Source: a virus. From it: a stretch of 64,000 nt of DNA. The DNA is taken from the IMG/VR virus record IMGVR_UViG_3300045988_111421. One strand, 5' to 3'. Both the position numbers and the translations under genes were made by a program. This document shows, piece after piece, positions 1-58,100 of this stretch (the first letter of the stretch is position 1; every line of letters begins with the position of its first letter). The notes beneath the pieces were generated by a model. The model was given only the letters and a program-made list of their open reading frames with translations, ran no database searches and had not been told where the DNA came from.

Positions 1-206
1 GATTTTCCAACAAAATTAAGACTTACAGCGTTTTAAAACAGCATAATGTAGGATTTTCCCACAAAATTAAGACTTACAGCGTTTTAAAACAGCATTTTGT
101 AGTTTCTACCAACAAAATTCAATAGATCAGCGTTTTAAAACAGCATAATGTAGGATTTTCCCACAAAATTAAGACTTACAGCGTTTTTAAAACAGTATTC
201 TGTAGG
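1..206. repeat. Four tandem direct repeats of ~51 bp (1-51, 52-103, 104-153, 154-206). Each carries the 10-bp perfect palindrome GTTTTAAAAC within ACAGCGTTTTAAAACAGCA. The array is probably truncated by the window edge.
   Basis: Direct reading. Units 1, 2 and 4 are near-identical (GATTTTCC[C/A]ACAAAATTAAGACTTACAGCGTTTTAAAACAGCAT..TGTAG). Unit 3 diverges in its 5' half but keeps the palindrome core. Confidence 0.85.
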
Positions 207-278: not shown

Positions 279-539
279 ATGAACGTATATGACTTTGCGC
301 CTGACTTAGATTTGAGTAAGGAGGTAGAAGGTTCTATTTTCGGGGTAAAAGGAATAGAAGGCAGTGATGGAATAGTATATGCTAAGGTAGTTAGCTGTGT
401 AGACGTTAAGGATTACAGTTGTGATAGGTGTATTTTTTATGATTGTTATAAGGATAAATGTTTATTATCGCGTAGTGATAGTTGTATAGATGGAGATTGG
501 ATTTGTAGGTACGAACAGGCTGCCATAGAGGGGGAGTAG
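279..539 (+). CDS. Small Cys-rich protein (SCDRCIFYDCYKDKC motif). Paralog of 22580..22777.
   Basis: 86-aa ORF, first gene after the repeat array. Shares a CDRCIFxDxxxC block with ORF 22580..22777. Confidence 0.5.
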   Translation: MNVYDFAPDLDLSKEVEGSIFGVKGIEGSDGIVYAKVVSCVDVKDYSCDRCIFYDCYKDKCLLSRSDSCIDGDWICRYEQAAIEGE

Positions 540-645
540 GCGGCGCCTTGGGCTAAGGCCTGCGGTTGTAGGTGGAACGTAGGTCGGAGCAGAGCCGGAA
601 CAGTTTATTGTGGAACTAAAAAAATAAAAAGGAGGAGATAGCGAT

Positions 646-726
646 ATGAAAAAGGCATTTAAGATATTTTCTATTATGTTTGTCATAGAAATAGTGCTGA
701 TAGCTATTTTAGATGCTATGGCGTAA
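646..726 (+). CDS. Candidate 26-aa hydrophobic peptide (MKKAFKIFSIMFVIEIVLIAILDAMA).
   Basis: Strong SD AAAAGGAGGAG 8 nt upstream of the ATG. Single predicted TM helix. Below the ORF-track size cut-off. Sits between a GC-rich segment and the tRNA-like/hairpin block. Confidence 0.25.
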   Translation: MKKAFKIFSIMFVIEIVLIAILDAMA

Positions 727-851
727 GTGAGAAAAATTTCTTCATTAATTTTCTTATGCTTTAGACAGAATGCTCCCATCTGCGAAGATCGGAGCATTTG
801 CTTTATGGGATTCATGGTGCAGCAAGTCGGTTCGATTCCGGCGATCTCACA
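727..851 (+). ncRNA. tRNA-like/structured RNA candidate. It has a 5' GTGAGAA that can pair with the 3' ATCTCAC. It has an internal conserved-loop hairpin (769-798). It has a canonical T-arm-like GTCGG-TTCGATT-CCGGC followed by an acceptor-like 3' strand.
   Basis: GGTTCGATTCC T-loop consensus with a 5-bp stem seen directly. No D-arm or anticodon arm could be built by hand. The 3' block is shared with 2074-2108. Confidence 0.2.
769..798 (+). terminator. Conserved-loop hairpin H1: 8-bp stem AATGCTCC/GGAGCATT, loop CATCTGCGAAGATC.
   Basis: Inverted repeat read directly. The loop resembles those of H2-H5 (CTGYGARGAT). Confidence 0.4.
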
Positions 852-874
852 CAACATTAAAATAGGGAAGAACA

Positions 875-1278
875 TGTTAAAAGAAGAATTTGAAGAACTG
901 ATTAAAAGGGAGGTAAACGAAAATCAGTATAAAAACATAGAAACGGCATACGAGGCTTTGCCGGAGTATATGGATAAGATGTATTTAGCAAGTGCTATTT
1001 CAAATGATATTGGGAAAGCTATTAATGTCTTATCGTTTTTAGGATCGCATATAAGCGAGTTAATGGGTTCGATAATAATCGAAAGGCAAAAGGTGGAATC
1101 ATGTGCCTATGATTTAATAAACAAATCGCATGAGGAGGATGACTTGAAAGCAAGAGAGATTGCCGTGCGATTAATAGGAGAGAGGGAAACAGTGGCATAC
1201 ACAGTAAAAGAAGGGCTGCCATTGTGGGAACAAGATAAAAAGTTTATAATAGAATTAATAAAGGAGGATAGAAAATGA
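875..1278 (+). CDS. Hypothetical protein (134 aa from the internal ATG at 875).
   Basis: The ORF track gives 727..1278, but its 5' part overlaps the hairpin/tRNA-like block. MLKEEFEEL begins at 875. Confidence 0.5.
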
Positions 1279-1442
1279 AAGACGGTATTGTATTGCATCC
1301 AGAGCATGGGTTGAATCCATCCATAGAACTATGCATAGTATGCGGTGAAGAGATGGGGATTGCTTTATTAGGGAATAACATCAAAGGGCAGGCGCCGCAT
1401 CATATATGCACGGGAGAAATATGTGACAATTGCAAAAGATAA
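1275..1442 (+). CDS. Small Zn-ribbon protein (55 aa; CIVCGEE...HHICTGEICDNC).
   Basis: ATGA overlap with the upstream stop. GGAGGATAGAAA precedes the ATG. Two CxxC pairs. Below the track cut-off. Confidence 0.35.
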   Translation: MKDGIVLHPEHGLNPSIELCIVCGEEMGIALLGNNIKGQAPHHICTGEICDNCKR

Positions 1443-1621
1443 TAGATGACGGAGGTTGTTTTATTATCGAAGTTGAGGATGGATCAGATCAAAAGAATCC
1501 GTATCGTACAGGGAGATATTGCGCGATAAAGAAAGAAGCAGCAAAGAAAATACTTGGACAGGAGCATAGTATTGTGTACATGGAAAAGTCTGCGTACAGT
1601 CAAATAATACCACAAAAATAA
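1430..1621 (+). CDS. Hypothetical protein (63 aa).
   Basis: ORF in the compact + block. Confidence 0.35.
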   Translation: MQKIIDDGGCFIIEVEDGSDQKNPYRTGRYCAIKKEAAKKILGQEHSIVYMEKSAYSQIIPQK

Positions 1622-1629
1622 AGAAAGAT

Positions 1630-1944
1630 ATGTTTACAAAAGAAGAGCGATTATTCATATGGAAAAAGGTATATGAGATGATTGATAGGTTAGAGGATGG
1701 GGAATACATATGTGTTGCGTTAAGAAATGTAGTGTTTATGTATTTCAAAACACATAAAAATATCTATGAGTTTCGTTCAGACGAAATGGTGAGAATATAT
1801 TTCCCGGAATTGGAGGAGAAGATAAGTATGGCCACAGAACCAGAGGAAACAAGAACGTTTTATGGGTGGTTTGGTTGTCTTAGTCCAGAAACGAAGGAGG
1901 TAAGGCTGAATATTGTGAAAGATATTATAAAAGAATTAGAATAG
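1630..1944 (+). CDS. Hypothetical protein (104 aa).
   Basis: ORF followed by hairpin H2. Confidence 0.5.
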   Translation: MFTKEERLFIWKKVYEMIDRLEDGEYICVALRNVVFMYFKTHKNIYEFRSDEMVRIYFPELEEKISMATEPEETRTFYGWFGCLSPETKEVRLNIVKDIIKELE

Positions 1945-1990
1945 TATTTTTGTTAATCTATTTTATTCATCAAATTAAGTTTTGGGTTTT

Positions 1991-2020
1991 GGCATGTCGG
2001 TTCGTGAGGATAGGCATGCC
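1991..2020 (+). terminator. Conserved-loop hairpin H2: stem GGCATG/CATGCC, loop TCGGTTCGTGAGGATAG.
   Basis: Read directly. Lies downstream of 1630..1944. Confidence 0.4.
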
Positions 2021-2099
2021 TATTTCTGCATCATAGAGGGGATGACGCGGCGTGCCGGTGCGTATGTGCCGGTCCTGGTTCGATTCTGGGCATCTCACA
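2004..2099 (+). ncRNA. tRNA-like/structured RNA candidate. GTGAGGA in the H2 loop can pair with the 3' ATCTCAC. T-arm-like CCTGG-TTCGATT-CTGGG at 2074-2090.
   Basis: Shares the block GGTTCGATTCYGG..ATCTCACA(C)AACAAT(A/T)AAA with 826-858. No complete cloverleaf resolved. Confidence 0.2.
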
Positions 2100-2119
2100 A
2101 ACAATAAAACAAAAAAGTT

Positions 2120-2727: not shown

Positions 2728-3533
2728 TATTAAAAACGACAACCAACGAGTTTTGTTTCATTAACGTAAGTTTCTACGAAACAATAGCAGATCCTCGTCA
2801 TTTCTTTGAACAGGATTATGAAGAGATGCCAGAATATGAGGAGGAATCGGATTTTGATTTTGATTCTTATTGCAATAAGTTTATTCCTTTTGTACAGGAA
2901 TGGGCGAATGAGGTAAGTGAACGCCTTTACGGATATGGCGTGAATAGTATAAAGGTAACATCGGTCGGATATCCGAAAGAATATAATTATGGTACTGATT
3001 GGATGAACGTAGAGGTAGAGTTTTGTGATGAATGGAGGCAAAAGATGTTATCTAACATTAGTAAGATTGTCAATGATGATAAATGCAAGAAGTATGCGGA
3101 GACTAATTACCGGTCGGTATCAGGATACATCTTTTTAGGACCTGAAGATTTAAAGGAATTTGAAAAGGAAATAATAGAAAGAAAGTCGGATTCCGGATAT
3201 GATGTAACAATATTATTAAATATGTATCTAACTTTGGCTTTTGTAAAAGAATTTGGATTTAAAGCCAGAGAAGCATGGAGTGAAATAACAGAATATGCTT
3301 ACGGATGTTTATCGTATTCCGATTTTGCAACAACAGAGATGCTTATACCGGAAGGTTCGGAGCATTTATTCAAAGACATTTACACGGCAAAGGCCGACGA
3401 ATTATATCATCATGTCCTGGATAAATTCGGATGGGCGTGGCGTGATCCGAAATATAAGTCAGAAACAGAATTATGCGCGATGCTAAAGTGGGCAAAAGAA
3501 AAAGGCTTGACCATTGAAGAGTTAAGTATTTAA
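2724..3533 (+). CDS. Hypothetical protein (269 aa).
   Basis: Long ORF. Confidence 0.6.
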   Translation: MILKTTTNEFCFINVSFYETIADPRHFFEQDYEEMPEYEEESDFDFDSYCNKFIPFVQEWANEVSERLYGYGVNSIKVTSVGYPKEYNYGTDWMNVEVEFCDEWRQKMLSNISKIVNDDKCKKYAETNYRSVSGYIFLGPEDLKEFEKEIIERKSDSGYDVTILLNMYLTLAFVKEFGFKAREAWSEITEYAYGCLSYSDFATTEMLIPEGSEHLFKDIYTAKADELYHHVLDKFGWAWRDPKYKSETELCAMLKWAKEKGLTIEELSI

Positions 3534-8805: not shown

Positions 8806-9351
8806 ATGAAATTGTTGAACATTTTAAAAACAGATAATTATGGGATATATATATGTACAAGATGTGGTGGAACAAATGTTGTCTGTGAAGCCATAGTAAA
8901 TCCGAATACTGGAAAAATAATAGATTATCTTGATGAATCTTTCATGCATGCTATTTGCTCGAATTGTGAAAACGAGGTGATAATATCCAACATTGAAGGA
9001 GTCAAACATGAAATTGATTTAAGGTTTCATGAATTTGTAGAAAAAACAGGTAAGGAGCCCAAATACGAAGAAAAAGAAGATGATTATTTTCCATTCTCAT
9101 CTGCAAGTATAGTAGCATACGAGTACAAACTACTCTATCATGAGAAATTCTTCGAACATCTTCATATGAAGAGGCTGGTTATTGACGAAAATATCCCTTT
9201 TCCAGTAAGTACATGGGAGCGCTCATATCGGTATAAAGGATATGGTTACAATATGTGCCGGGAGACAAAGAAAAAACTTCTACAGGCTATTAAAGGTGTA
9301 AACGTAGAGGAGGAAGATGTATCTTTGTACACTACTGGAGGATGGGATTAA
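8806..9351 (+). CDS. Zn-ribbon protein (181 aa; CTRCGG...CSNCENE).
   Basis: Two CxxC pairs near the N-terminus. Confidence 0.55.
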   Translation: MKLLNILKTDNYGIYICTRCGGTNVVCEAIVNPNTGKIIDYLDESFMHAICSNCENEVIISNIEGVKHEIDLRFHEFVEKTGKEPKYEEKEDDYFPFSSASIVAYEYKLLYHEKFFEHLHMKRLVIDENIPFPVSTWERSYRYKGYGYNMCRETKKKLLQAIKGVNVEEEDVSLYTTGGWD

Positions 9352-24247: not shown

Positions 24248-25948
24248 ATGACAACAATCATGTACGTGTCAGCTATCTTAGCTATAGTGATTATTTTGAC
24301 AATCATCGGAGTCTTATCAAGGTATCGTAGATGTAAGCCTAATCAGGTCTTGGTCGTTTATGGTAAGACAGGTAGGGAAAAGAAATCGGCGAAATTATAT
24401 CATGGTGGAGCGGCATTTGTCTTGCCTATTATTCAAAGCTATGATGTTTTGTCAATGGAGCCTATGCAAATAGATTGCAAGCTTACCGGTGCTTTATCAT
24501 CTCAGAATATTAGAGTAGATGTACCTACGACCATTACAGTAGCTATCAGTACAAATCCCGAAATCATGCAAAATGCGGCAGAAAGACTTTTGGGGATGGA
24601 TACCGAATCTACTGAAAATCTTATTACGGACATTGTTTACGGTCAGATGCGTTTGATTATTGCTGAAATGACAATCGAAAAACTTAATTCTGACAGGGAT
24701 GAGTTTTTGGATAAGGCAAGAAAGAACATTGACAACGAGCTTAACAAGTTAGGTCTTTACCTCCTGAACATCAACATCAGTGACATCAGAGACGAAGCTG
24801 GTTATATTATGAACCTTGGTAAGGAGGCTGAAAGTAGGGCTCTGAACGAGGCACAGGCTAATATCGAAGAACAGGAGAAGCTGGGTGCTATTAAGATTGC
24901 TGTACAGCAGAAGGAGAAAGAAACGGCTGTGGCTAATACCAAAAAAGAGCAAGAGATTCAAATTGCTTGTACTGAAAAAGAAAAGGAAACGATAGTAGCT
25001 GAAACGAAGAAAGAAAAAGAAATAGCCTTGGCTTTAACCGATAAAGAAAAACAGATCGGCGTAGCTCAAGCAGATAGAGACAGGGCTGCGGTTATCGCAA
25101 AAACTTTAACCGACAAGGAATCGGCGATTGTAAGATCTAAGGCAGAACTTGAAGTAAATAAAGCCGAGGCTGAAAGGATGGAAGAAGTCGGAAAGAATAA
25201 GGCTGAAGCTGACAAGGAAGCAGCTATAGCAATACAAGACTCTGAAGCTCAGATTAAGAAGGCTGAGGCTGAGAAAAATGCGTCTATAGGATACAACAAT
25301 GCCCAGAAGGAGGTTGCTGTGTCAGTATCAGAACTACAGATCATCAAAGCTCAATCAGAGAAGAAGGCCGGAGAAGAAAAAGTTAAATCGGAAGCGGCTG
25401 TAAAAACAGCAAAAGAGCTTGCCGACAAAGAAGTGGAAGAAGCTAAGGCTAAGAAAGTTCAGGCTGCGCTTAAGGCTGAAAAGATTGTGCCGGCTGAAAC
25501 CCAGAAGGAAGAGGCTATCTTGCAAGCTGATGCTGAGGCAGAGAAGATCAAACGCCGGGCTGAGGCAGAAGCAGCAGCACATTTGGCAAAAGCTGAGGCG
25601 GAGGCAAAAGCTATTCAGATGAAGCTGGAGGCAGAAGCCGAAGGTAAGAAAAAATCGTTGATGGCAGAAGCCGACGGATTTAAGGCTATGGTGGAAGCAG
25701 CAGAATCCAATCCTCAGATCGCCATCCAGTACAAGATGGTTAATCAGTGGAAAGAAATTGCCGGAGAACAGGTTAAGGCATTTGAGCACATTAACCTCGG
25801 AAATATCACGGTATTTGACGGCGGTCAGAACAGTACCGGTAATTTCCTTAACAATGTTGTCAAGACCGTCGCTCCGGCATTGGGAGTCATTGATCAGCTT
25901 CCGATTGCAGATACTTTAAAGAAGTTAAAAGGAGATGACAAAAAATAA
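24248..25948 (+). CDS. Flotillin/YqiK-like SPFH (band-7) protein with a long Ala/Glu/Lys coiled-coil repeat region (566 aa).
   Basis: N-terminal TM, NQVLVVYGKTGRE..GGAAFVLPIIQSY..SMEPMQID SPFH core, then EA-repeat coiled coil. Confidence 0.7.
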   Translation: MTTIMYVSAILAIVIILTIIGVLSRYRRCKPNQVLVVYGKTGREKKSAKLYHGGAAFVLPIIQSYDVLSMEPMQIDCKLTGALSSQNIRVDVPTTITVAISTNPEIMQNAAERLLGMDTESTENLITDIVYGQMRLIIAEMTIEKLNSDRDEFLDKARKNIDNELNKLGLYLLNINISDIRDEAGYIMNLGKEAESRALNEAQANIEEQEKLGAIKIAVQQKEKETAVANTKKEQEIQIACTEKEKETIVAETKKEKEIALALTDKEKQIGVAQADRDRAAVIAKTLTDKESAIVRSKAELEVNKAEAERMEEVGKNKAEADKEAAIAIQDSEAQIKKAEAEKNASIGYNNAQKEVAVSVSELQIIKAQSEKKAGEEKVKSEAAVKTAKELADKEVEEAKAKKVQAALKAEKIVPAETQKEEAILQADAEAEKIKRRAEAEAAAHLAKAEAEAKAIQMKLEAEAEGKKKSLMAEADGFKAMVEAAESNPQIAIQYKMVNQWKEIAGEQVKAFEHINLGNITVFDGGQNSTGNFLNNVVKTVAPALGVIDQLPIADTLKKLKGDDKK

Positions 25949-33337: not shown

Positions 33338-33390
33338 ATAATTTGATTATTTTACAAATAACGATTACATTTACGATATAAATCATTCAA

Positions 33391-34581
33391 ATGAGATTAG
33401 TTGAAAGGCATATAGTTAAAGACAACCGGTTTGAGGATATTTGCTTCAAATCCGGCTTGTTATATAATTATGTTCTTTACAACATTCGTCAAGGAATCTT
33501 TTCAGGTAACTATTTAAAGGAATTTGATTTATCAAACAAACTTTGCAAAGAAAACCAATTCGATTTCAGGAATTTACCTAATCATGTATCCCAACAGGTG
33601 ATTAAACAGGTATTTAAAAACATAAAATCCTGGATAAAACTCAAGAAGGATTTTGAAAAGAATCCTTCTAAATACGGAAATCATAGACCTCACCTTCCAT
33701 CATACAAACAAGGTAAGAAACAAAACATGGTTGTTTTCACCAACTGCAATTGTAGGGTAAAGGGTGATAATTGTATTTATTTTGTTAAAGATATAATCAA
33801 ACCTATCAAAACAAATGTAAAGAAAGACGAACTAAAACAAGTTAGAATAATCCCTCAAGCTACATGTTATGTAGTAGAGGTAGTTTATGAAAGAAAGGAA
33901 ACTGATCTTGGTTTAAACAAAGACAATTTTCTTTCGATTGATTTAGGATTGAATAATTTATGTTCATGTATTAGTAATGTAGAAACTAATTCTTTCATTA
34001 TAAACGGACGGGTTATGAAATCAGTAAATCAGTGATACAATAAGAAGAAAGCTAAGTTGATGTCTTTTATTGGTAATAAGGGAACTTCAAATAGAATAAG
34101 AAAAATTACTTTGTTTAGAAATTGTTGGATAGAAGACAAATTGCATAAAATCAGTAGATACATTGTAGACTTTTGTAAATCTAACAATATAGGAACAATC
34201 ATCATTGGATTAAACAAAGAATGGAAAAACGAGATAAATATCGGTAAAAGGAATAACCAACATTTTGTTTCTATTCCTCATTCTAAATTGATTGATAAGA
34301 TTGTTTACAAAGCAAATCTTTTAGGGATAGAGGTAATTACTCATGAGGAATCTTACACATCAAAGATTGACCATCTTGCTTTTGAACCTCTAAAGAAACA
34401 AGAATCCTATTTAGGGAAAAGAAAGAAACGTGGATTATTCCAAAGTTCCGTTGGAAAGCTAATTAATGCTGATATTAATGGAGCTATAGGAATAGCAAGA
34501 AAAGTAGTCGGTGATTCTTTCATTGGAAAGATAATCGATAGTGGATTTGTGTTTAATCCGGTTAGAATAAATATTTTGTGA
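33391..34581 (+). mobile_element. tnpB: IS200/IS605-family TnpB (OrfB) RuvC-like nuclease gene, with no tnpA. It is interrupted by a single in-frame TGA at 34033-34035. The Zn-finger cysteines are replaced (RGLFQSSVGKLINAD).
   Basis: RuvC-I SIDLGLNNL, RuvC-II HEESYTSKID, RuvC-III NADINGAIGIARK. Both ORF-track pieces (33391..34035, 34057..34581) are in the same frame. Confidence 0.75.
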
Positions 34582-34588
34582 TATAAGG

Positions 34589-35335
34589 TTGAATCTAATG
34601 AATAAAATGAATAATTTTAATAACATTAACTACGCAGCAAAAGCCAGAAGAGCTTATTTGATAAATAATTTCGATAAGATTCTTAACAGTCTTAACACGC
34701 TTCATTCAACGGTTGAGACCATGACATTGTTCGTAAACGACCAGGCTTATAATTACATTCTTAAGCTAAAGGAAGTAATTAAAACCAGTCCTATGTATAA
34801 GCACAATATCAAGCGTCTTTTAAATGACATGGACAAAGAGATAAAGAGGTACAATGCTTCTATCTACTACATAAATAAAGAGCGTAGTGAGGTTATAGCT
34901 GATATAACACAAGCGATGGAAGATTGCCTCATGCCATACATAGACGACCTGGCCGGCGCTATAAGGGCAGCCGTGTGGTCGAGGGGTGTGTCCGAGGAGC
35001 GGACGGAAGCGGCGGTACTGTCCCTAATCGTATCCTCCTTGGCCACGACATCAGGCAGACTTATTTCAGGTGGATATCAGATCATGAAAGAAATGGGTGG
35101 TGGATGGGGTGGTAATCCATTTACGTTTATGAGCATTGATAAGATAAGACACTTATCTACATCATTATCTGATGCTATTACCGGTGGAGAAATAGCTCTT
35201 GAAGAAAAAGAAGCCAATGACATAACTAAGGCAATGGATGTTTTTATTGAGAAAATGTCTGATTCGGATATTGTTGATAAGGTAATTAGCATACTCGAAG
35301 AGGCAGAATCTAAAAACAAGGAGGAGCGATCGTGA
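34589..35335 (+). CDS. Hypothetical protein (248 aa or fewer; the start is uncertain) with a GC-rich internal segment.
   Basis: ORF begins 8 nt after the TnpB stop. Confidence 0.45.
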   Translation: MNLMNKMNNFNNINYAAKARRAYLINNFDKILNSLNTLHSTVETMTLFVNDQAYNYILKLKEVIKTSPMYKHNIKRLLNDMDKEIKRYNASIYYINKERSEVIADITQAMEDCLMPYIDDLAGAIRAAVWSRGVSEERTEAAVLSLIVSSLATTSGRLISGGYQIMKEMGGGWGGNPFTFMSIDKIRHLSTSLSDAITGGEIALEEKEANDITKAMDVFIEKMSDSDIVDKVISILEEAESKNKEERS

Positions 35336-46059: not shown

Positions 46060-46277
46060 TCTTTCTTGAACTTACCGTGCCACGTTCCAGGAACTACCAC
46101 CTCTTCGCCTCCCTTACTATATTCAATAGCGGCACATTCAGAACAAAGAGGCTTGCCTTCATATCCCTTTAGCGACTTATCGTAAATACGATTCTTACAA
46201 GGTCTTATAAGAGCCCAGTAATATGATGTGGCTGTATTATCTATACAGCCACATTTTGAACATACAAACAAGCTCAT
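46002..46277 (-). CDS. Zn-ribbon protein (91 aa; CSKCGC...CSEC).
   Basis: Cys pairs. ATGA overlap upstream. Confidence 0.5.
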   Translation of the reverse strand: MSLFVCSKCGCIDNTATSYYWALIRPCKNRIYDKSLKGYEGKPLCSECAAIEYSKGGEEVVVPGTWHGKFKKEWPTEEEKKHIGKNGILNL

Positions 46278-47140
46278 TCCGCAATCTCCCAGTCATTAGA
46301 CATAATATCATGTTCGGTTGGATTCCAATTTGATGCTACTTTTTGACCTGTATCTACCATCAATATATTTACGTCAGACATACAGATATACTTTTTACCC
46401 CAATCGATTCTTTTTATCTTACGACCTAATTTAAGCCGTTCTAAAGCCTGTTCGAATGTCATGCCACGACGAGGCAGTTTGAGATACTTTTTAAGTCTGT
46501 CGGCAGCTTCATTTGGTGTATGGCCATCGTATTCGAAAGCGGTTTCTCTTTCAGGAACATCAAACAAATCCCAGTATTTGCTTTCATAGTGATTAGATAC
46601 CTGACCGGTAGGTAGGATCGCCATCACAATAAACCAATCATCAGAACCGAAGCATTTTTCTCCGTCGCTGTGTCTCCTTGATTTGCAAACTTCAACCTGT
46701 CCGCTTCTGGCTAATAGATTAAAGAAGGCAGCGTTATACAACATGCGATACCTATACAATTCATTGAAAGTGTGGTATCCGTCAGAGACTTCTCCCACGT
46801 CTACAGGCTTCTTGTTTTGAATACTACCCAAAATGTTCTCTATATAGAGCTGTATTTTATACATACCCATTTCGGTGTGGCCGTATTTGTTCAAGATATT
46901 ATTGACATCGTATTGTATATTAAAATCTTTTTCAAATTCTACTTCAGGATGATTAGGATAGCAGTAGTCCACTGATGCTTCTAACACAGACTTTATGTGT
47001 TCTATTATCCTCGCAACATCATCATGTTTAAAAAAATGCTTAAATCTTTCAACGAATTTAATATCTTCGTTGATTGCTGATTCGAACTCTTCTTTTGTCA
47101 TCACTCTAATTACATCTTTTTTTAAATCGTCTAATCCCAT
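46274..47140 (-). CDS. 288-aa protein whose C-terminal ~85 aa resemble DUF2829 (Tad2-like) domains.
   Basis: MTFEQALERLKLGRKIKRIDWGKKYI ... NWNPTEHDIMSNDWEIAE, compared with my recollection of the DUF2829 pattern (F.EAL.ALK.GKK..R..W ... DWEIVE). Confidence 0.5.
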   Translation of the reverse strand: MGLDDLKKDVIRVMTKEEFESAINEDIKFVERFKHFFKHDDVARIIEHIKSVLEASVDYCYPNHPEVEFEKDFNIQYDVNNILNKYGHTEMGMYKIQLYIENILGSIQNKKPVDVGEVSDGYHTFNELYRYRMLYNAAFFNLLARSGQVEVCKSRRHSDGEKCFGSDDWFIVMAILPTGQVSNHYESKYWDLFDVPERETAFEYDGHTPNEAADRLKKYLKLPRRGMTFEQALERLKLGRKIKRIDWGKKYICMSDVNILMVDTGQKVASNWNPTEHDIMSNDWEIAE

Positions 47141-55117: not shown

Positions 55118-58100
55118 TCAACACTCCTTATTTAACTCATTTATCGAATCCGAATTATCAGAACCTTCTACAAGATTCTTATTCCTATCTATCTCTTCCT
55201 GGCTCATATTACTAATCATATTTTGTATTTTCCTACCAGATTGAGATAAAGAACGGATGAATGCGCTGGAACTTATCTTAACTCCAAGATCCGGTTTTGC
55301 CCTAAACGCTTCACCGGTACTGATATTATACAAATCATACACACCTGAGTTCATATAGAATTTATATATCCAGTTTCCACCAGCTTTTTTGTACCCTAAT
55401 TTGGTTAACTCGACTACACTCATACCAAATTTAATGCCATTACGACCCATTATCTTCTCCGGTATAGGTTCTACCTTAGCCGGAACAGATGTATATGCTT
55501 CATCGCCGCCGTACAGGAAATAAGGGGTTGTCACCCTTGATATGTGAGTAAGCGACTCTTCGGATATACGAGGTTCGTCTTTCGCAGCCTTAGATCCTTT
55601 CCTTAGATTGGATATTCTAATAAAAGGATCGTATGTCAAAAAGGTTAAGCCGTATTCTACTTTATAACCTGATACGCCGTTAAGGTCCCTTATAGCCTTA
55701 GTCGTATGCGAGTGATTGATGGTGTCTATACCATACCTTGATTCCATATCGGTCATAATACTATTAACCTCATCTCCCTCTACATAAACCTCTTCTCCTT
55801 CCGGGATAGAGGTTATGCCGGCAGCCCTTCTAAGTAGCCATAAAGTAACTTCAGCAATGTCAGAGAACTTATCTCCGTTCTTCCTATAGTTATCTACTCT
55901 TCCTTCTTCAGATCCAGGTAATTCGACATTTCTTTCAACTTTGACATTTGTTCTGGATTGTCCTTTGCCTTCTCCATCTCCCTTTTTATCGCCATCTTCC
56001 TCAGTGCGTACTGCACCGCCTTCTGCACTTCCTTCTTTTCCATCATTTAAAATATTATCTGATTCTGACTCTATAGACTCCACGACAGCATCATACTCTG
56101 GTATGCCGCTAAGGAAATCTGCTACGTTATTCAAAAACTCTATTTTTTCCTCGTTTGTCATATCAAGGCTTTCCACGGGCTCCCATATGGCAGGCAAGTT
56201 GTTTGATTTTATTGCAGTAGAAACATCTTCTACAGTTTTATTATCCACCGTAGGCAAAACTTTAGAAACCAAACTATTGATATCAGATTCCATTTTTTCT
56301 ACTTCCTCTTTTGTGCCATATTTTTTTAGGGTATCCATGCCATTGACTCTAAGAGAATAATTCAAAGCCTTGCTTGGAACAAAATTAATATATTTCAAAA
56401 AGTTTTTCAACTCTGATATAATTTGTTCGTCAGATCTTGGCCCAACATAATCAACCACCACCTGATCTGTTTGAGAACGAAGCCAAGAAACGTATTCTTC
56501 TAAGGTCTTACCACCTTTACTGGAAGGAGTGGATATTTTATCACCTACTGTTCCTTTAGGTTCTAATCCCATTTCTTCCTTAAGGCTTTTAGGATTACCT
56601 CTCTCACGAAGAAACCTCAAATCACCTCCTACAATCTTCCTTGCTATAAAATCAAAAATATTAGCATAAGACGGCAATCCTTCTTTTTCTATATGAGATT
56701 CTATTTCGTTTAACATAAGAGAGAAGTTTTTCCTGGAGGTACGCTTCTTGCCAGGTAAAGACCGCGCAGCTTGTGCCGCAGGAGTCGGCTGAGCTAATGG
56801 CGCCGGCTGAGTCTCCCGGACAGCCCCTTCCTCTGGCATTTCCTCTTCATAAACATCCACGTCTTCTTTAGAAGTAACGGTCTTACCCTCATCAGAGAAA
56901 GGAAGATCATCCTCTATAAGCGATTTAGGTCTGGAAGATGATTTACCAAACTGAATCCTGATCTTAGGAGCAACAAACATCTCACCTTCGAAATCTATTC
57001 CAGATTCTACTTCAGACGTCACAATGTCTTTCACACTCCTACTTCCATCTTCTACCCACTTAACAACATCAGGAACTGTAGATAATTCTTCTATAGCCTC
57101 ACGAGCTTTTCTAAGACCTGAAATAGGATTCAAATACGATACTTGATACGAAGCCGGATCAAGACCTAACTTGGTTAGATACGCATTAAGATCTTGTATA
57201 TCATCTTGACCCATCTGTAGCAATTCAGAATCACCAGATTCAAGCAGCATATCTATAAAAGACATCCATTTCTGCCCTTCCTCTGATTCTACAGAACGTA
57301 GGCTAACTGGGAAAAGATAATTAAGACCGTTTTTACCTTTGATGACGACTACCGGAACTCTTACATTTTTGTAATTATTCCCCTTGTCATTTAATATAGA
57401 ATAAGCAAATGGGAAGCCTGTGTATTTAGATCCGTTCTTAAGCACGACTTTGCCATTTAATACATATCCAACATCAGATACTTTTTCAGCACCTTTTTCG
57501 GTAATAGGGAGATTTTCTATCTGGCCATATCCTTGACCGCTCACCTTCATGTTAAACACCGGTCTTCCGGGAAGGGTCTGGGCAACAACATGCGTGCCGA
57601 CGCCGATGGTAGCCGACCGGCCGGCGTCCTTCTTCCACTTGTTAAAAGCCGTTCTTCTTATTTTACTTATACCATCTATGCCTCCTGTATCAGCTTTTAC
57701 AACAGAAACGAATCTGTTCCCACTCATGACCTTGATAACCATATTGGACACCAGTTTATTTTCAGCAGATTCTATTCTTTTTTTATCGCCGGACTGAACA
57801 GCATCATTGTATTCGGCAAAAAGAGACTGATTATAAGTATCATTTACATCTATTTCGAGATTAACCTTATCTCCTTTTTTCAAAGAAGATAATGCTTCCT
57901 GATCTATTTTATCTACCTCATTCTCTCCGAATCCGACACCCGTTCTGTACGGAACCAATTCATCTGAATCAAGACGCTTATAAACCAAAGAATAGGAATT
58001 ACCCACGTCCTGAATAGACACGTCTGTGTAACGGTTAAGAACACGAGCCGATTCTTTGTCTATAGACCATCTCGCATGATAAGGCAGTTCAATTATAGTA

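What the first reader, a model, noticed from the sequence alone, without database searches (positions are those of the whole stretch)
727..2108. Two copies of a tRNA T-arm/acceptor-like block without a resolvable cloverleaf
Positions 826-858 (GTCGGTTCGATTCCGGCGATCTCACACAACATTAAAA) and 2074-2108 (CCTGGTTCGATTCTGGGCATCTCACAAACAATAAAA) share a canonical T-loop GGTTCGATTC with 5-bp stems. Each is followed by a 7-nt acceptor-like strand, and each sits 15-20 nt before a start codon. Upstream GTGAG(A/G)A segments (727-733; 2004-2010) could pair with ATCTCAC to close 125- and 96-nt structures that enclose a conserved-loop hairpin. They may be unusual tRNAs (possibly relevant to the TnpB in-frame TGA), tRNA-like regulatory RNAs, or tRNA-gene remnants.
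Basis: seen in the sequence. Interest (0 to 1): 0.5.

Follow-up and report, generated by a model that had tools for sequence, protein, structure and literature searches.

The report
Two tRNA-like minihelix RNAs in phage
The two repeated blocks are real and are the 3' parts of two small non-coding RNA modules in a human-gut phage that mimic only the acceptor/T-arm half of a tRNA; they are not decoding tRNAs, and what they do is untested.

Summary
Window 829-851 and 2077-2099 share GGTTCGATTCNGGNNATCTCACA (0 expected by chance), and both copies are conserved in more than 100 related gut-phage contigs.

In E2 that segment is the GNRA loop and stem of a separate hairpin. In E1 two relatives lose it without compensation.

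The 3' strand pairs better with GGGAUU (807-812) in E1 and GGGAUG (2039-2044) in E2. This gives compact modules at 806-850 and 2038-2099, each built from:
- a 6-7 bp alanine-type acceptor stem (G2-C71, G3·U70, G4-C69) stacked directly on a canonical T arm
- a GG-containing linker, plus one hairpin in E2
- no D arm, no anticodon arm and no encoded CCA

Each module is preceded by a covarying GNRA-capped hairpin and ends 21-23 nt before a start codon. The architecture matches the tRNA-like domain of tmRNA ("TLD-only" mini-tmRNAs, known from mycobacteriophage DS6A), but conserved TLD motifs are missing.

These are not tRNAs, suppressors, Rfam families or att sites. Most likely they are tRNA-mimic processing signals, decoys, or both. 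Function is inferred, not shown.

The parts
769..798 (+). E1 hairpin P1: 8 bp (769-776/791-798), a 1x1 mismatch (C777/C790), 4 bp (778-781/786-789) and a GCGA tetraloop (782-785). It is followed by the U-rich stretch UGCUUUAU.
   Evidence: 12 pairs, 99.2% of cells paired. Three pairs carry changes on both sides (AU 28 / GC 15; UA 43 / CG 5; CG 49 / AU 1). It is present in every MFE fold.
806..812 (+). E1 acceptor-like 5' strand UGGGAUU. It pairs with 843-849 as U1-A72, G2-C71, G3.U70, G4-C69, A5-U68, U6-A67, U7.G66.
   Evidence: An unbiased scan picks it (gap 13, 7/7 pairs). The helix 807-812/843-848 is 100% paired in 50 distinct sequences, including L059, whose tail has three substitutions. 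It is the MFE of 806-850. Model R1 aligns 806-850 end to end.
813..825 (+). E1 linker CAUGGUGCAGCAA, which stands in for the D arm, anticodon arm and variable region. CAUGGUG (with GG) is invariant; the rest varies.
   Evidence: Alignment A1. Docking of the GG onto the T loop is inference.
826..842 (+). E1 T arm: GUCGG UUCGAUU CCGGC.
   Evidence: 5 pairs, 99.6% paired. Variants are UG/CG/UA, CG/UG, and one GC->AU double change. Loop variation in relatives is confined to positions 57 (G/A) and 59.
843..850 (+). E1 acceptor-like 3' strand GAUCUCA plus C at the discriminator position. No CCA follows (the next bases are ACA).
851..873 (+). A/C-rich 23-nt leader running to the ATG of ORF 874-1278.
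   Evidence: In relatives a different gene follows the same element.
727..733 (+). It directly follows the TAA of ORF 646-726.
   Evidence: 0 compensatory changes and 5 unpaired cells. It does appear in the MFE of 727-852.
756..770 (+). The 15-nt block ATGCTTTAGACAGAA, shared exactly with the upstream paralogous element E0, which lies outside the window.
   Evidence: E about 0.03 for a 64-kb search. Its meaning is unknown.
1991..2020 (+). E2 hairpin P1: 8 bp (1991-1998/2013-2020), a 1x1 mismatch (G1999/A2012), 4 bp (2000-2003/2008-2011) and a GUGA tetraloop (2004-2007). It is followed by UAUUUCU.
   Evidence: 12 pairs, 99.8% paired. Five pairs vary on one side only, always keeping a pair (GC/GU, UG/UA). 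It is present in the MFE folds. One relative (L012) has it deleted and one (L064) has a 22-nt duplication.
2038..2044 (+). E2 acceptor-like 5' strand GGGGAUG, which pairs with 2091-2097. It is identical to the 5' end of a Firmicute tmRNA and of a tRNA-Ala.
   Evidence: Scan (gap 29, 6/7). Helix 2039-2044/2091-2096 is 97.4% paired. L015 carries a G-C->A-U double change plus G.U->G-C. It is part of the MFE. The tmRNA in L189 starts GGGGATG and ends CATCTCC-ACCA. A tRNA-Ala with the same stem is at L382.
2045..2053 (+). E2 linker ACGCGGCGU, which contains a conserved GG.
   Evidence: Alignment A2.
2054..2073 (+). E2 hairpin P3: 8 bp with a GUAU loop, in the position of tmRNA helix 2a or a variable arm.
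   Evidence: 8 pairs, 98.8% paired. Seven pairs vary on one side and keep pairing. Two relatives lack 14 nt of it.
2074..2090 (+). E2 T arm: CCUGG UUCGAUU CUGGG.
   Evidence: 99.6% paired. The relatives' variant UCUGG...CCAGG changes three pairs and keeps all of them.
2091..2099 (+). E2 acceptor-like 3' strand CAUCUCA, then C and A. Model R1 reads this as CAUCUC[a]C-A, that is G1-C72 with a bulged A and an A discriminator. No CCA is encoded.
2100..2119 (+). A-rich leader to the ATG of ORF 2120-2353, with no Shine-Dalgarno sequence.

Best explanation
**What it is (shown)**
Each block is the 3' part of a compact, + strand, non-coding tRNA-mimic module. E1 spans 806-850 (45 nt) and E2 spans 2038-2099 (about 61 nt). 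They sit inside a run of small same-strand ORFs at one end of the genome of a 151-kb gut phage.

The fold has these features:
- A 6-7 bp acceptor-like stem stacks directly on a canonical 5-bp T arm, in the 7/5 geometry of tRNA.
- The stem is of the alanine type (G2-C71, G3.U70, G4-C69).
- A short GG-containing linker replaces the D arm. E2 adds one hairpin.
- There is no anticodon arm and no encoded CCA.

This is the architecture of the tRNA-like domain of tmRNA and of 'TLD-only' mini-tmRNAs of phages. A separate GNRA-capped hairpin followed by U-rich sequence lies just upstream of each module. A 21-23-nt leader and a start codon lie just downstream.

**How it most likely works (inferred)**
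- The acceptor/T-arm stack is the minimal substrate of the host tRNA-maturation enzymes.
- RNase P would cut at the 5' edge (before 806/807 and 2038/2039).
- RNase Z would cut after the discriminator (about 850 and 2098/2099), because no CCA follows. The phage's own tRNA genes also lack CCA.
- These cuts would punctuate the polycistronic transcript. The upstream mRNA would end in the protective hairpin, the downstream gene would get a short leader, and a small stable tRNA-like RNA would be released.
- After CCA addition, the released RNA could act further as a tmRNA/tRNA-Ala mimic.
For: **Real and conserved**
- The shared block is non-random.
- It is conserved in at least 120 viral stretches across changing downstream genes.

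**RNA on the + strand**
- 17% (E1) and 29% (E2) of paired cells are G.U. These would be A.C on the other strand.
- Hairpin P1 of E1 has three pairs with compensatory double changes, and the T arm has one.
- In E2, 18 pairs vary on one side only and stay paired.

**Not coding**
Relatives carry 1-nt and 4-nt indels inside E1.

**Closure**
- An unbiased scan of the whole phage genome for a TTCRA T arm plus a 7-nt closure returns only the tRNAs, a YrlA-like RNA, and E0, E1 and E2. For these three it picks the 5' strands named here.
- L015 shows a compensatory change.
- The same closure occurs in unrelated phage contigs L123, L137, L138, L143 and L145.

**Alanine-type stem and TLD architecture**
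- The L189 tmRNA (RF00023, 148.9 bits) starts GGGGAUG and ends CAUCUCC-ACCA.
- 18 short 'TLD-only-like' genes were found in other phage contigs.
- A model built only from 12 of them ranks E2 (17.8 bits, E 0.018) and E1 (16.9 bits, E 0.031) first and second in the 64-kb window, with exactly these boundaries.
- A TLD-only gene is known in mycobacteriophage DS6A (PMC4131195).

**Processing idea**
- The phage tRNA genes carry no CCA.
- The modules end 21-24 nt before start codons in E0, E1, E2 and L123.
- A bacterial tRNA-like Y RNA with a 7-bp acceptor stem is cut by RNase P and receives CCA in vivo (PMC4201824).
Against: - No transcript, cleavage or end-mapping data exist. Every step of the mechanism is inference.
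- Thermodynamic support is weak. Module folds are no more stable than shuffles (z = 0.05 and -0.17). The MFE of E2 does not form the G.U-rich T stem. In the 89-nt context the MFE of E1 chooses other local pairs.
- Divergence within the clade is low (92-94% column identity). Most support for the closure is therefore one-sided, wobble-compatible change. The 5' strands are G/U-rich and tolerate most transitions.
An analogous distal pairing in E0 shows one compensatory change (A-U to U-A in L032/L062), although 11 sequences have C.U there.
- The TLD comparison is partly circular. The TLD-only set was retrieved with a pattern derived from E2 (T loop plus CATCTC), and the E-values are marginal.
- Pair 1:72 is usually unpaired, position 73 is C, and the conserved tmRNA motifs GGNUUCGAC and GGAC are absent.
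- Single contigs tolerate damage: an E1/E2 recombinant with a mismatched T stem (L127) and deletions in P1 or P3 (L012, L038, L070).
Confidence: 0.45

Rival explanations
1. Trans-acting decoy. The modules are diverged 'TLD-only' mini-tmRNAs or tRNA-Ala minihelices. Once matured and CCA-tailed, they would titrate SmpB, AlaRS or EF-Tu and so inhibit host trans-translation. Alternatively they would serve as extra partners of the phage's Ro60/Rsr protein. Processing would only be the route to making them.
For: - The stems are alanine-type with G3.U70, kept in 49/50 (E1) and 42/45 (E2) distinct sequences.
- The architecture matches TLD-only genes.
- Hudson et al. note that a TLD-only molecule strongly inhibits tmRNA, perhaps by titrating SmpB (PMC4131195).
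- The closest sequenced relative encodes Rsr with a YrlA-like RNA, and other Rsr-bound RNAs carry T arms.
- The modules lie among the small same-strand ORFs at one end of the genome.
Against: - The TLD motifs that contact SmpB and the T loop (GGNUUCGAC, GGAC) are missing.
- The discriminator is C, or there is a bulged A. No CCA is encoded.
- G3.U70 becomes A-U in some relatives (L008, L066).
- The elements lie about 75 kb from rsr on the other strand.
- There is no YrlA or tmRNA hit in Rfam.
Confidence: 0.17
2. Cis-acting 5'-UTR element. The uncleaved structure just upstream of the ribosome-binding region would act as a 5' stabiliser, a ribosome standby site, or part of a switch between the distal and proximal pairings, tuning translation of the downstream gene.
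For: - The distance to the start codon is constant and short (21-24 nt after the module) in E0, E1, E2 and L123.
- The gene after E2 has no Shine-Dalgarno sequence.
- Two mutually exclusive pairings exist for the same 3' strand.
- The distal strand of E1 abuts the stop codon of ORF 646-726.
Against: - The same element precedes different genes, some with strong and some with no Shine-Dalgarno sequence.
- In L143 a homologous-type module is followed by a terminator, not a gene.
- Nothing explains why a stabiliser would need a perfect tRNA T loop.
Confidence: 0.15
3. Decaying remnants with no function of their own. They would be pseudogenes of phage tRNA or TLD-only genes, or att-type fragments of a tmRNA/tRNA 3' end, persisting through recent common ancestry and acting at most as recombination hot spots.
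For: - Divergence in the clade is low.
- L127 is an E1/E2 recombinant at the T loop, and deletions occur in L012, L038 and L070.
- L189 shows how integration leaves a T-arm + CATCTCAC fragment next to a tmRNA gene.
- The tail looks like CATCTCCACCA with one C lost.
Against: - Compensatory and wobble-preserving changes occur in P1, P3, the T arms and the closure.
- A complementary 5' strand is present, which an att fragment would not need.
- There are three different modules in tandem orientation.
- No integrase is annotated anywhere in the 151-kb relative.
- The elements are retained while flanking genes are swapped.
Confidence: 0.18
4. Unusual but functional decoding tRNAs, for example intron-containing or suppressor tRNAs reading the TnpB TGA.
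For: ARAGORN in intron mode calls tRNA-Val(gac) at 1990-2098.
Against: - There is no anticodon arm in E1.
- The E2 call needs a 21-nt intron at 32/33, a long variable arm on a tRNA-Val, a C.C mismatch and a 3-bp G.U-rich D stem.
- Its anticodon reads GAC or GGC in close relatives, and the 'intron' varies in length.
- Default and mitochondrial modes find nothing.
- There is no Rfam tRNA hit even at E 10.
Confidence: 0.02

Closest known systems
'TLD-only' mini-tmRNA of phages: mycobacteriophage DS6A (Hudson et al. 2014, PMC4131195), and the short genes found here in IMG/VR contigs (e.g. L341, L342, L310, L323)
   Same: - Size is 45-80 nt.
- The order of parts is the same: 7-nt 5' strand, GG-containing linker, optional short hairpin, canonical T arm, then a 7-nt 3' strand stacked on the T stem.
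- The 5' strand of E2 (GGGGAUG) is identical and its 3' strand matches at 6 of 7 positions.
- G2-C71, G3.U70 and G4-C69 are present.
- There is no tag reading frame.
- They often sit right in front of a gene.
   Different: - E1 and E2 lack the conserved GGNUUCGAC D-loop analogue and the GGAC before the T arm.
- Pair 1:72 is U-A (E1) or G.A/bulged (E2).
- Position 73 is C rather than A.
- No CCA is encoded.
- The E1 5' strand is UGGGAUU.
- Model scores are marginal (17-18 bits).
tRNA-like processing signals: plant mitochondrial t-elements and the mascRNA/MALAT1 type (from general knowledge; mascRNA in PMC11693755)
   Same: An acceptor/T-arm mimic without a working anticodon arm, embedded in a longer transcript at the boundary between functional units. 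The expected substrates are RNase P, RNase Z and the CCA-adding enzyme.
   Different: Those are eukaryotic or organellar and their cleavage is proven. Here the setting is a bacteriophage operon and cleavage is untested.
Bacterial/phage Y RNA-like YrlA (Chen et al. 2014, PMC4201824; Rfam RF02553)
   Same: A tRNA-mimicking non-coding RNA with a perfect T arm. It is found in phages that encode Ro60/Rsr, as this phage's closest relative does. M. smegmatis YrlA is cut by RNase P and CCA-tailed.
   Different: - YrlA has the permuted order V-T-AS-D, with a D arm and a GNCGAA Rsr-binding motif, and lies within 4 kb of rsr.
- E1 and E2 have the normal tRNA order, no D arm and no such motif. They are about 75 kb from rsr and get no RF02553 hit.
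- The phage's real YrlA-like RNA next to rsr scores 28.5 bits.
RNase P-matured phage regulatory RNAs (P4 CI RNA, P1/P7 C4 RNA; from memory, not checked here)
   Same: Small phage RNAs cut out of longer transcripts because part of them looks like a tRNA acceptor/T-arm to RNase P.
   Different: Those act as antisense regulators with known targets and have no canonical T loop. No Rfam C4 hit was found here.

Membership tests
canonical tRNA | Cloverleaf with a D arm and a 5-bp anticodon stem carrying a 7-nt loop; found by tRNA detectors. | tested here: not met
   ARAGORN default finds 0 genes in 64 kb and the -mt mode finds 0. There is no RF00005 hit at E<=10 in 500-2400. The hairpin loops are 4 nt (GNRA, GUAU).
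canonical tRNA | The anticodon is conserved among close relatives. | tested here: not met
   The only candidate, the intron-mode tRNA-Val at 1990-2098, reads GAC or GGC in relatives, and the 'intron' length varies.
canonical tRNA | T arm: 5-bp stem, loop TTCRANY, G53-C61. | tested here: met
   Loop variants in relatives occur only at positions 57 (G/A) and 59, plus one T55C in E0.
canonical tRNA | A 7-bp acceptor stem abutting the T stem (7/5 stack). | tested here: met
   E1 has 7/7 pairs and E2 has 6/7, with no unpaired base between the stems. The evidence is moderate only.
tmRNA (full length) | Detected by the Rfam tmRNA models or by ARAGORN; has a tag reading frame and pseudoknots. | tested here: not met
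   Only noise: 9.9 and 6.5 bits against gathering scores of 84 and 47. The modules are 45-61 nt with no ORF.
TLD-only mini-tmRNA | Alanine-type acceptor stem GGGG.../...CUCC with G3.U70. | tested here: inconclusive
   G2-C71, G3.U70 and G4-C69 are present in both window copies. G3.U70 is kept in 49/50 and 42/45 distinct sequences. However, 1:72 is U-A (E1) or G.A/bulged (E2).
TLD-only mini-tmRNA | A73 discriminator and a 3' CCA (encoded or added). | tested here: not met
   The tails are ...CUCA-C-ACA and ...CUCA-C-AAA. Post-transcriptional addition cannot be tested here.
TLD-only mini-tmRNA | D-loop analogue GGNUUCGAC after the 5' strand and GGAC before the T arm. | tested here: not met
   Alignment to model R1 shows only the GG retained. 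GGAC is deleted in E2 and replaced by AGCAA in E1.
TLD-only mini-tmRNA | Significant match to a profile of the family. | tested here: inconclusive
   R1 scores 17.8 bits (E 0.018) and 16.9 bits (E 0.031), the top two hits of the window. However, the training set was fetched with a pattern derived from E2, and the calibration is rough.
YrlA / bacterial Y RNA | Order V-T-AS-D with a D arm; GNCGAA(N)G motif; within about 4 kb of rsr on the same strand. | tested here: not met
   There is no RF02553 hit, and no D arm or motif. rsr lies at 73091-74725 of OR575929, about 75 kb away on the other strand.
tRNA-like processing signal (t-element / mascRNA type) | An acceptor/T-arm mimic at a boundary inside a longer transcript. 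| tested here: met
   The modules fill the intergenic gaps between same-strand ORFs 646-726/874-1278 and 1630-1944/2120-2353. Co-transcription itself is assumed.
tRNA-like processing signal (t-element / mascRNA type) | Cleavage by RNase P and RNase Z at the module edges. | not testable with these tools
   This needs end mapping or enzyme assays.
att fragment of a tRNA/tmRNA gene | Lies next to an integrase; is only the 3' part of the host gene. | tested here: not met
   No integrase is annotated in the whole 151-kb relative. A complementary 5' strand is present, and there are three different modules.

The most novel reading that the evidence does not exclude
An abundant clade of human-gut phages carries two to three alanine-type tRNA/tmRNA minihelix mimics. 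Host RNase P and RNase Z would cut them out of the early transcripts and they would be CCA-tailed. They would then act in trans as decoys for SmpB, AlaRS or EF-Tu, or as cofactors of the phage's own Ro60/Rsr, to shut down or redirect host ribosome rescue and RNA quality control during infection. The same cleavages would punctuate the early mRNAs, which would be a bacteriophage version of mitochondrial tRNA punctuation.
Probability: 0.12. Interest if true: 0.8.

Novelty: new variant of a known kind. Interest (0 to 1): 0.5.

Why it matters
If these modules are cut by tRNA-maturation enzymes, they would show that phages use stripped-down tRNA mimics to shape their own transcripts. That role is established for mitochondria and for some eukaryotic long non-coding RNAs, but not for phage operons.

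If they act as decoys, they would add an RNA-based way for phages to interfere with ribosome rescue.

In practical terms:
- These regions, and the 540-nt structured RNA upstream, are currently blank or mis-annotated as protein genes in the deposited genome.
- The scans also indicate that 'TLD-only' mini-tmRNA genes, reported so far for one mycobacteriophage, occur in many phage contigs.

Tried and rejected
**Detectors and databases**
- ARAGORN default, relaxed (-ps90/80/70), intron and mitochondrial modes gave only one implausible intron-mode call at default score. Lower thresholds gave obvious noise.
- Rfam at gathering score and at E<=10 gave nothing meaningful for E1/E2, the L123 element or E0.
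- The simple promoter/terminator scan gave no terminator call and promoter-like sites at chance level. The P1 hairpins have an internal mismatch that the scan cannot handle.
- PHROG/Pfam on neighbouring ORFs gave no informative function next to the elements.
- Literature searches found no description of these elements. The catalogue of 10,006 viral structured RNAs has no searchable supplement.

**Structural alternatives**
- My own first models of a 'P2' hairpin (E1 800-820; E2 2029-2044) were dropped. They had no compensatory change and several unpaired cells, and their 3' halves are better used in the closure.
- An alternative pairing 2013-2020/2049-2056 in E2 was judged by eye on alignment A2, not formally counted. 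It conflicts with the G2014A variant found in 5 sequences.
- tRNA-Sec (8/5) and tRNA-His (G-1:C73) readings were considered by eye. No D arm or anticodon arm fits.

**Other readings**
- Coding: the frame 727-873 is open and in phase with both flanking ORFs, but indels in relatives break it.
- A promoter for a phage RNA polymerase, or a DNA hairpin, was rejected. G.U-dependent, strand-specific pairing and the exact tRNA T-loop signature argue for RNA.
- An apparent match of E0 to window 55567-55684 lies inside a 2238-aa ORF and is chance.
- The genome-wide bacterial scan gave mostly random hits. Only 5 of 120 had a full T stem.
- The 'CCA-adding enzyme' annotation in the relative could not be confirmed by Pfam, and the window's version lacks that N-terminal part.
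Full report
**1. Observation**

GGTTCGATTC occurs exactly twice, at 829 and 2077. That 10-mer alone is not unusual when one mismatch is allowed (3 found, 3.7 expected). The shared 23-nt block GGTTCGATTCNGGNNATCTCACA occurs twice against 0.00 expected. Both T-like stems are 5 bp.

The quoted strings actually end at 862 and 2109. The start codons (874, 2120) lie 23 and 21 nt after the acceptor-like strands.

**2. Source and distribution**

The window is 96.7% identical to phage csAssE-Sib (OR575929.1), a 151-kb human-gut Caudoviricetes genome in which this region is annotated only as hypothetical proteins. These are mostly 80-150-kb gut contigs carrying both copies 850-1250 bp apart. I call the copies E1 (window about 727-873) and E2 (about 1991-2119).

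**3. Not a known RNA gene**

- ARAGORN finds no tRNA or tmRNA in the window.
- Rfam finds nothing at gathering score, and only noise at E<=10 around the elements.
Its intron mode makes one call, tRNA-Val(gac) at 1990-2098.
- That call needs a 21-nt intron at position 32/33, a C.C mismatch, a 3-bp D stem and a long variable arm. Its anticodon middle base is A or G in close relatives, and the 'intron' length varies. I reject it.
- E1 is not coding either. Frame 727-873 is open and in phase with both flanking ORFs, but relatives carry 1-nt and 4-nt indels.

**4. Structure within the clade**

I aligned 51 distinct E1 sequences and 46 distinct E2 sequences.

- **E1 P1 (769-798).** The hairpin is 8 bp, a 1x1 mismatch, 4 bp and a GCGA loop. 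Three of its pairs change on both sides (AU 28 / GC 15; UA 43 / CG 5; CG 49 / AU 1).
- **E1 T arm.** It has one double change and many wobble transitions.
- **E2.** It has a hairpin of the same design (1991-2020, GUGA loop), a second hairpin P3 (2054-2073) and the T arm. Eighteen pairs vary on one side only and stay paired.
- **Strand.** G.U pairs make up 17% (E1) and 29% (E2) of paired cells, so the structures exist only on the + strand.

**5. The closure**

- In E2, GTGAGGA is the loop and 3' stem of hairpin 1991-2020.
- In E1 the helix 727-732/845-850 has no compensatory change and five unpaired cells. L032 (GTAATAA) and L131 (GTAAAAA) lose two pairs each with an unchanged tail, and the altered tail of L059 breaks a pair.

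*A nearer strand fits better.*
- E1: U806-U812 (UGGGAUU) pairs with G843-A849.
- E2: G2038-G2044 (GGGGAUG) pairs with C2091-A2097.
- These stems abut the T stems with no spare base, as in the 7/5 stack of tRNA.
- The E1 helix is 100% paired in 50 sequences, including L059.
- The E2 helix is 97.4% paired. L015 carries a G-C to A-U double change and a G.U to G-C change. The six exceptions all sit at pair 7:66, where the T stem is extended instead.

*An unbiased scan agrees.* A scan of the whole csAssE-Sib genome plus the window, looking for a TTCRA T arm closed by any 7-mer within 70 nt, returns only the tRNAs, a YrlA-like RNA, and E0, E1 and E2. It picks the same strands.

*Caveats.*
- Divergence is low and the 5' strands are G/U-rich, so they tolerate most transitions.
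- Folding energies are no better than shuffles.
- The distal pairing appears in one MFE. A comparable distal pairing in E0 has one compensatory change, but 11 sequences have a mismatch there.
- I therefore treat the distal pairing as a possible alternative conformation.

**6. A third paralogue and unrelated relatives**

About 1.9 kb upstream of E1, outside the window, relatives carry E0. This is a 540-580-nt intergenic region that ends in the same kind of module: UGGUUGU, a 4+4-bp arm, a T arm, then GCAACCU-C, 24 nt before an ATG. RNAalifold predicts 76 pairs there, 13 of them with double changes. E0 shares the 15-mer ATGCTTTAGACAGAA with E1.

Unrelated viral contigs (L123/L132, L137, L138/L140, L143, L145) also carry a T arm followed by N-ATCTCAC. 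Each has an upstream (G/A)GAT-N' strand whose last base pairs with N in four of the five families (T-A, G-C, G-C and a G-T wobble); in L145 it is a G.A mismatch. In a hand-assembled 23-sequence alignment, 92% of cells pair, against 72% in shuffles. Pair 1:72 is usually open and position 73 is always C. I chose the 5' strands for that alignment myself, so it leans towards the structure.

**7. What the modules resemble**

- A bacterial hit (L189, an Oscillospiraceae MAG) is a genuine tmRNA (RF00023, 148.9 bits). It starts GGGGAUG and ends CAUCUCC-ACCA, and an att-like duplicate ending CATCTCACCA lies 170 nt downstream.
- The E2 acceptor strands are thus 7/7 and 6/7 identical to an alanine-type stem. 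A tRNA-Ala with the same stem is at L382.
- Both window copies have G2-C71, G3.U70 and G4-C69.
- A further viral scan returned tmRNA 3' ends and 18 short genes of the form GGGGAUG, GG(N)UUCGAC, short hairpin, GGAC, T arm, CAUCUCC-A(CCA). These are 'TLD-only' mini-tmRNAs.
- One such gene is known in mycobacteriophage DS6A. A similar molecule inhibits tmRNA, perhaps by titrating SmpB (PMC4131195).
- A covariance model built from 12 of these foreign sequences ranks E2 (2038-2099; 17.8 bits, E 0.018) and E1 (806-850; 16.9 bits, E 0.031) first and second in the window.
- This test is partly circular, because the training set was fetched with a pattern taken from E2.
- E1 and E2 lack the GGNUUCGAC and GGAC motifs, have C at position 73 and encode no CCA. 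I therefore do not file them as members, only as the closest architecture.

**8. Context**

- The elements lie at one end of the genome among small same-strand ORFs with no assigned function. Replication genes follow.
- The relative's genome encodes Ro60/Rsr with a YrlA-like RNA (28.5 bits, below the gathering score of 69) and two tRNAs just upstream. It also encodes polynucleotide kinase/phosphatase, four more tRNAs and a diversity-generating retroelement. No integrase is annotated.
- The phage tRNA genes encode no CCA.
- E1 and E2 fail the YrlA definition: permuted order, D arm, GNCGAA motif and proximity to rsr (PMC4201824).

**9. Mechanism**

*Shown.* These are conserved, strand-specific, structured non-coding modules with a tRNA acceptor/T-arm geometry. 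Each is flanked by a hairpin upstream and a short leader downstream.

*Inferred.*
- Such a stack is the minimal substrate for RNase P, RNase Z and the CCA-adding enzyme.
- Cleavage would punctuate the polycistronic transcript and release a small tRNA-like RNA. A precedent is M. smegmatis YrlA, which is cut by RNase P and CCA-tailed in vivo.
- Whether the released RNA then acts as a tmRNA/tRNA-Ala decoy is open.

*Rivals.* The alternatives are a purely trans-acting decoy, an uncleaved 5'-UTR element, decaying remnants, and a true tRNA. The last is effectively excluded.

**10. Verdict**

- The 'unusual tRNA' reading and the proposed closures are not supported. The 'tRNA-like RNA' reading is supported.
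- This is a new variant of a known kind (tRNA/tmRNA-TLD mimics). It is of moderate interest, and its function is untested.

Noticed in passing
Outside the window, about 1.1-1.7 kb before window position 1: OR575929.1 about 500-1040 (minus strand); L010 11667-12249: E0 is a 540-580-nt intergenic region that is a richly structured RNA. RNAalifold predicts 76 pairs in its last 300 nt, 13 of them with compensatory double changes. It ends in a third tRNA-like module. It has no Rfam hit. In the GenBank record part of it is annotated as a hypothetical protein (CDS 556-843). ARAGORN at a lowered threshold calls a dubious 'permuted tmRNA' there.
   Followed up: partly
OR575929.1 72600-74725 (L277 8601-10725), outside the window: The closest sequenced relative encodes a Ro60/Rsr protein. 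It is preceded by a YrlA-like RNA (RF02553, 28.5 bits, E 0.0024, below the gathering score), tRNA-Tyr and tRNA-Lys. Polynucleotide kinase/phosphatase and an NrnA-like phosphodiesterase lie near E0. Together these look like an RNA repair and quality-control toolkit.
   Followed up: partly
IMG/VR loci L281, L298, L310, L317, L319, L323, L341, L342, L348, L359, L367: These are short (57-86 nt) 'TLD-only' mini-tmRNA-like genes in many unrelated phage contigs. They read GGGGAUG, GGNUUCGAC, hairpin, GGAC, T arm, CAUCUCC-A(CCA), and several sit directly in front of a Shine-Dalgarno sequence. Only one such gene (phage DS6A) is mentioned in the literature I read.
   Followed up: partly
window 33391-34575 (+): A TnpB-family ORF is 44% identical to a csAssE-Sib TnpB over 407 aa. 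It is interrupted by an in-frame TGA at 34033-34035 (...SVNQ*YNKK...). It sits in a stretch that fails to align to the relative (window about 33340-34624), consistent with an insertion, although the flanking alignments suggest only a few bases of the relative are replaced.
   Followed up: partly
window 1-206: Four tandem copies of a 51-nt unit (81% matching) lie upstream of the first ORF. Their function is unknown; an origin or iterons, or repeated regulatory sites, are possibilities.
   Followed up: no
window 646-1278: ORF 646-726 (a 26-aa hydrophobic peptide), the E1 region 727-873, and ORF 874-1278 are all in one reading frame, separated only by TAA 724-726. In some relatives a 4-nt deletion moves the stop to the TGA inside GTGAG.
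   Followed up: partly
L127 7685-7829; L012 12492-12734; L038 870-983; L064 570-697: These are natural rearrangements at the elements. L127 is an E1/E2 hybrid joined inside the T loop, with the genes between deleted. L012 has a deletion removing hairpin P1 of E2. L038 has a 14-nt deletion in P3. L064 has a 22-nt duplication of the P1 5' half. The repeats appear to act as recombination points.
   Followed up: partly
L189 (Oscillospiraceae MAG JAZLFI010000268.1) 2870-3406: A tmRNA gene is followed 170 nt downstream by a 23-nt duplicate of its T arm and 3' end with one C missing (CATCTCACCA). This is the footprint of an element integrated into ssrA. Local ARAGORN missed this tmRNA, although Rfam scores it at 148.9 bits.
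   Followed up: no
window 8806-9351 (+): The C-terminal 87 aa are 98% identical to a csAssE-Sib protein annotated 'polyA polymerase / CCA-adding enzyme'. The N-terminal part, which in the relative carries a GG...DxD nucleotidyltransferase-like motif, is replaced here by a Cys-rich segment. Pfam supports neither protein.
   Followed up: partly
L138 3415-3490 / L140 2694-2769: About 40 nt downstream of the tRNA-like module in these contigs, ARAGORN calls a 'tRNA-???' with a two-base anticodon (an odd anticodon loop).
   Followed up: no
window 46274-47140 (-) and 24248-25948 (+): One protein has WDGH and Tad2-like (Thoeris anti-defence 2) domains. Another is an SPFH/flotillin-family protein.
   Followed up: no
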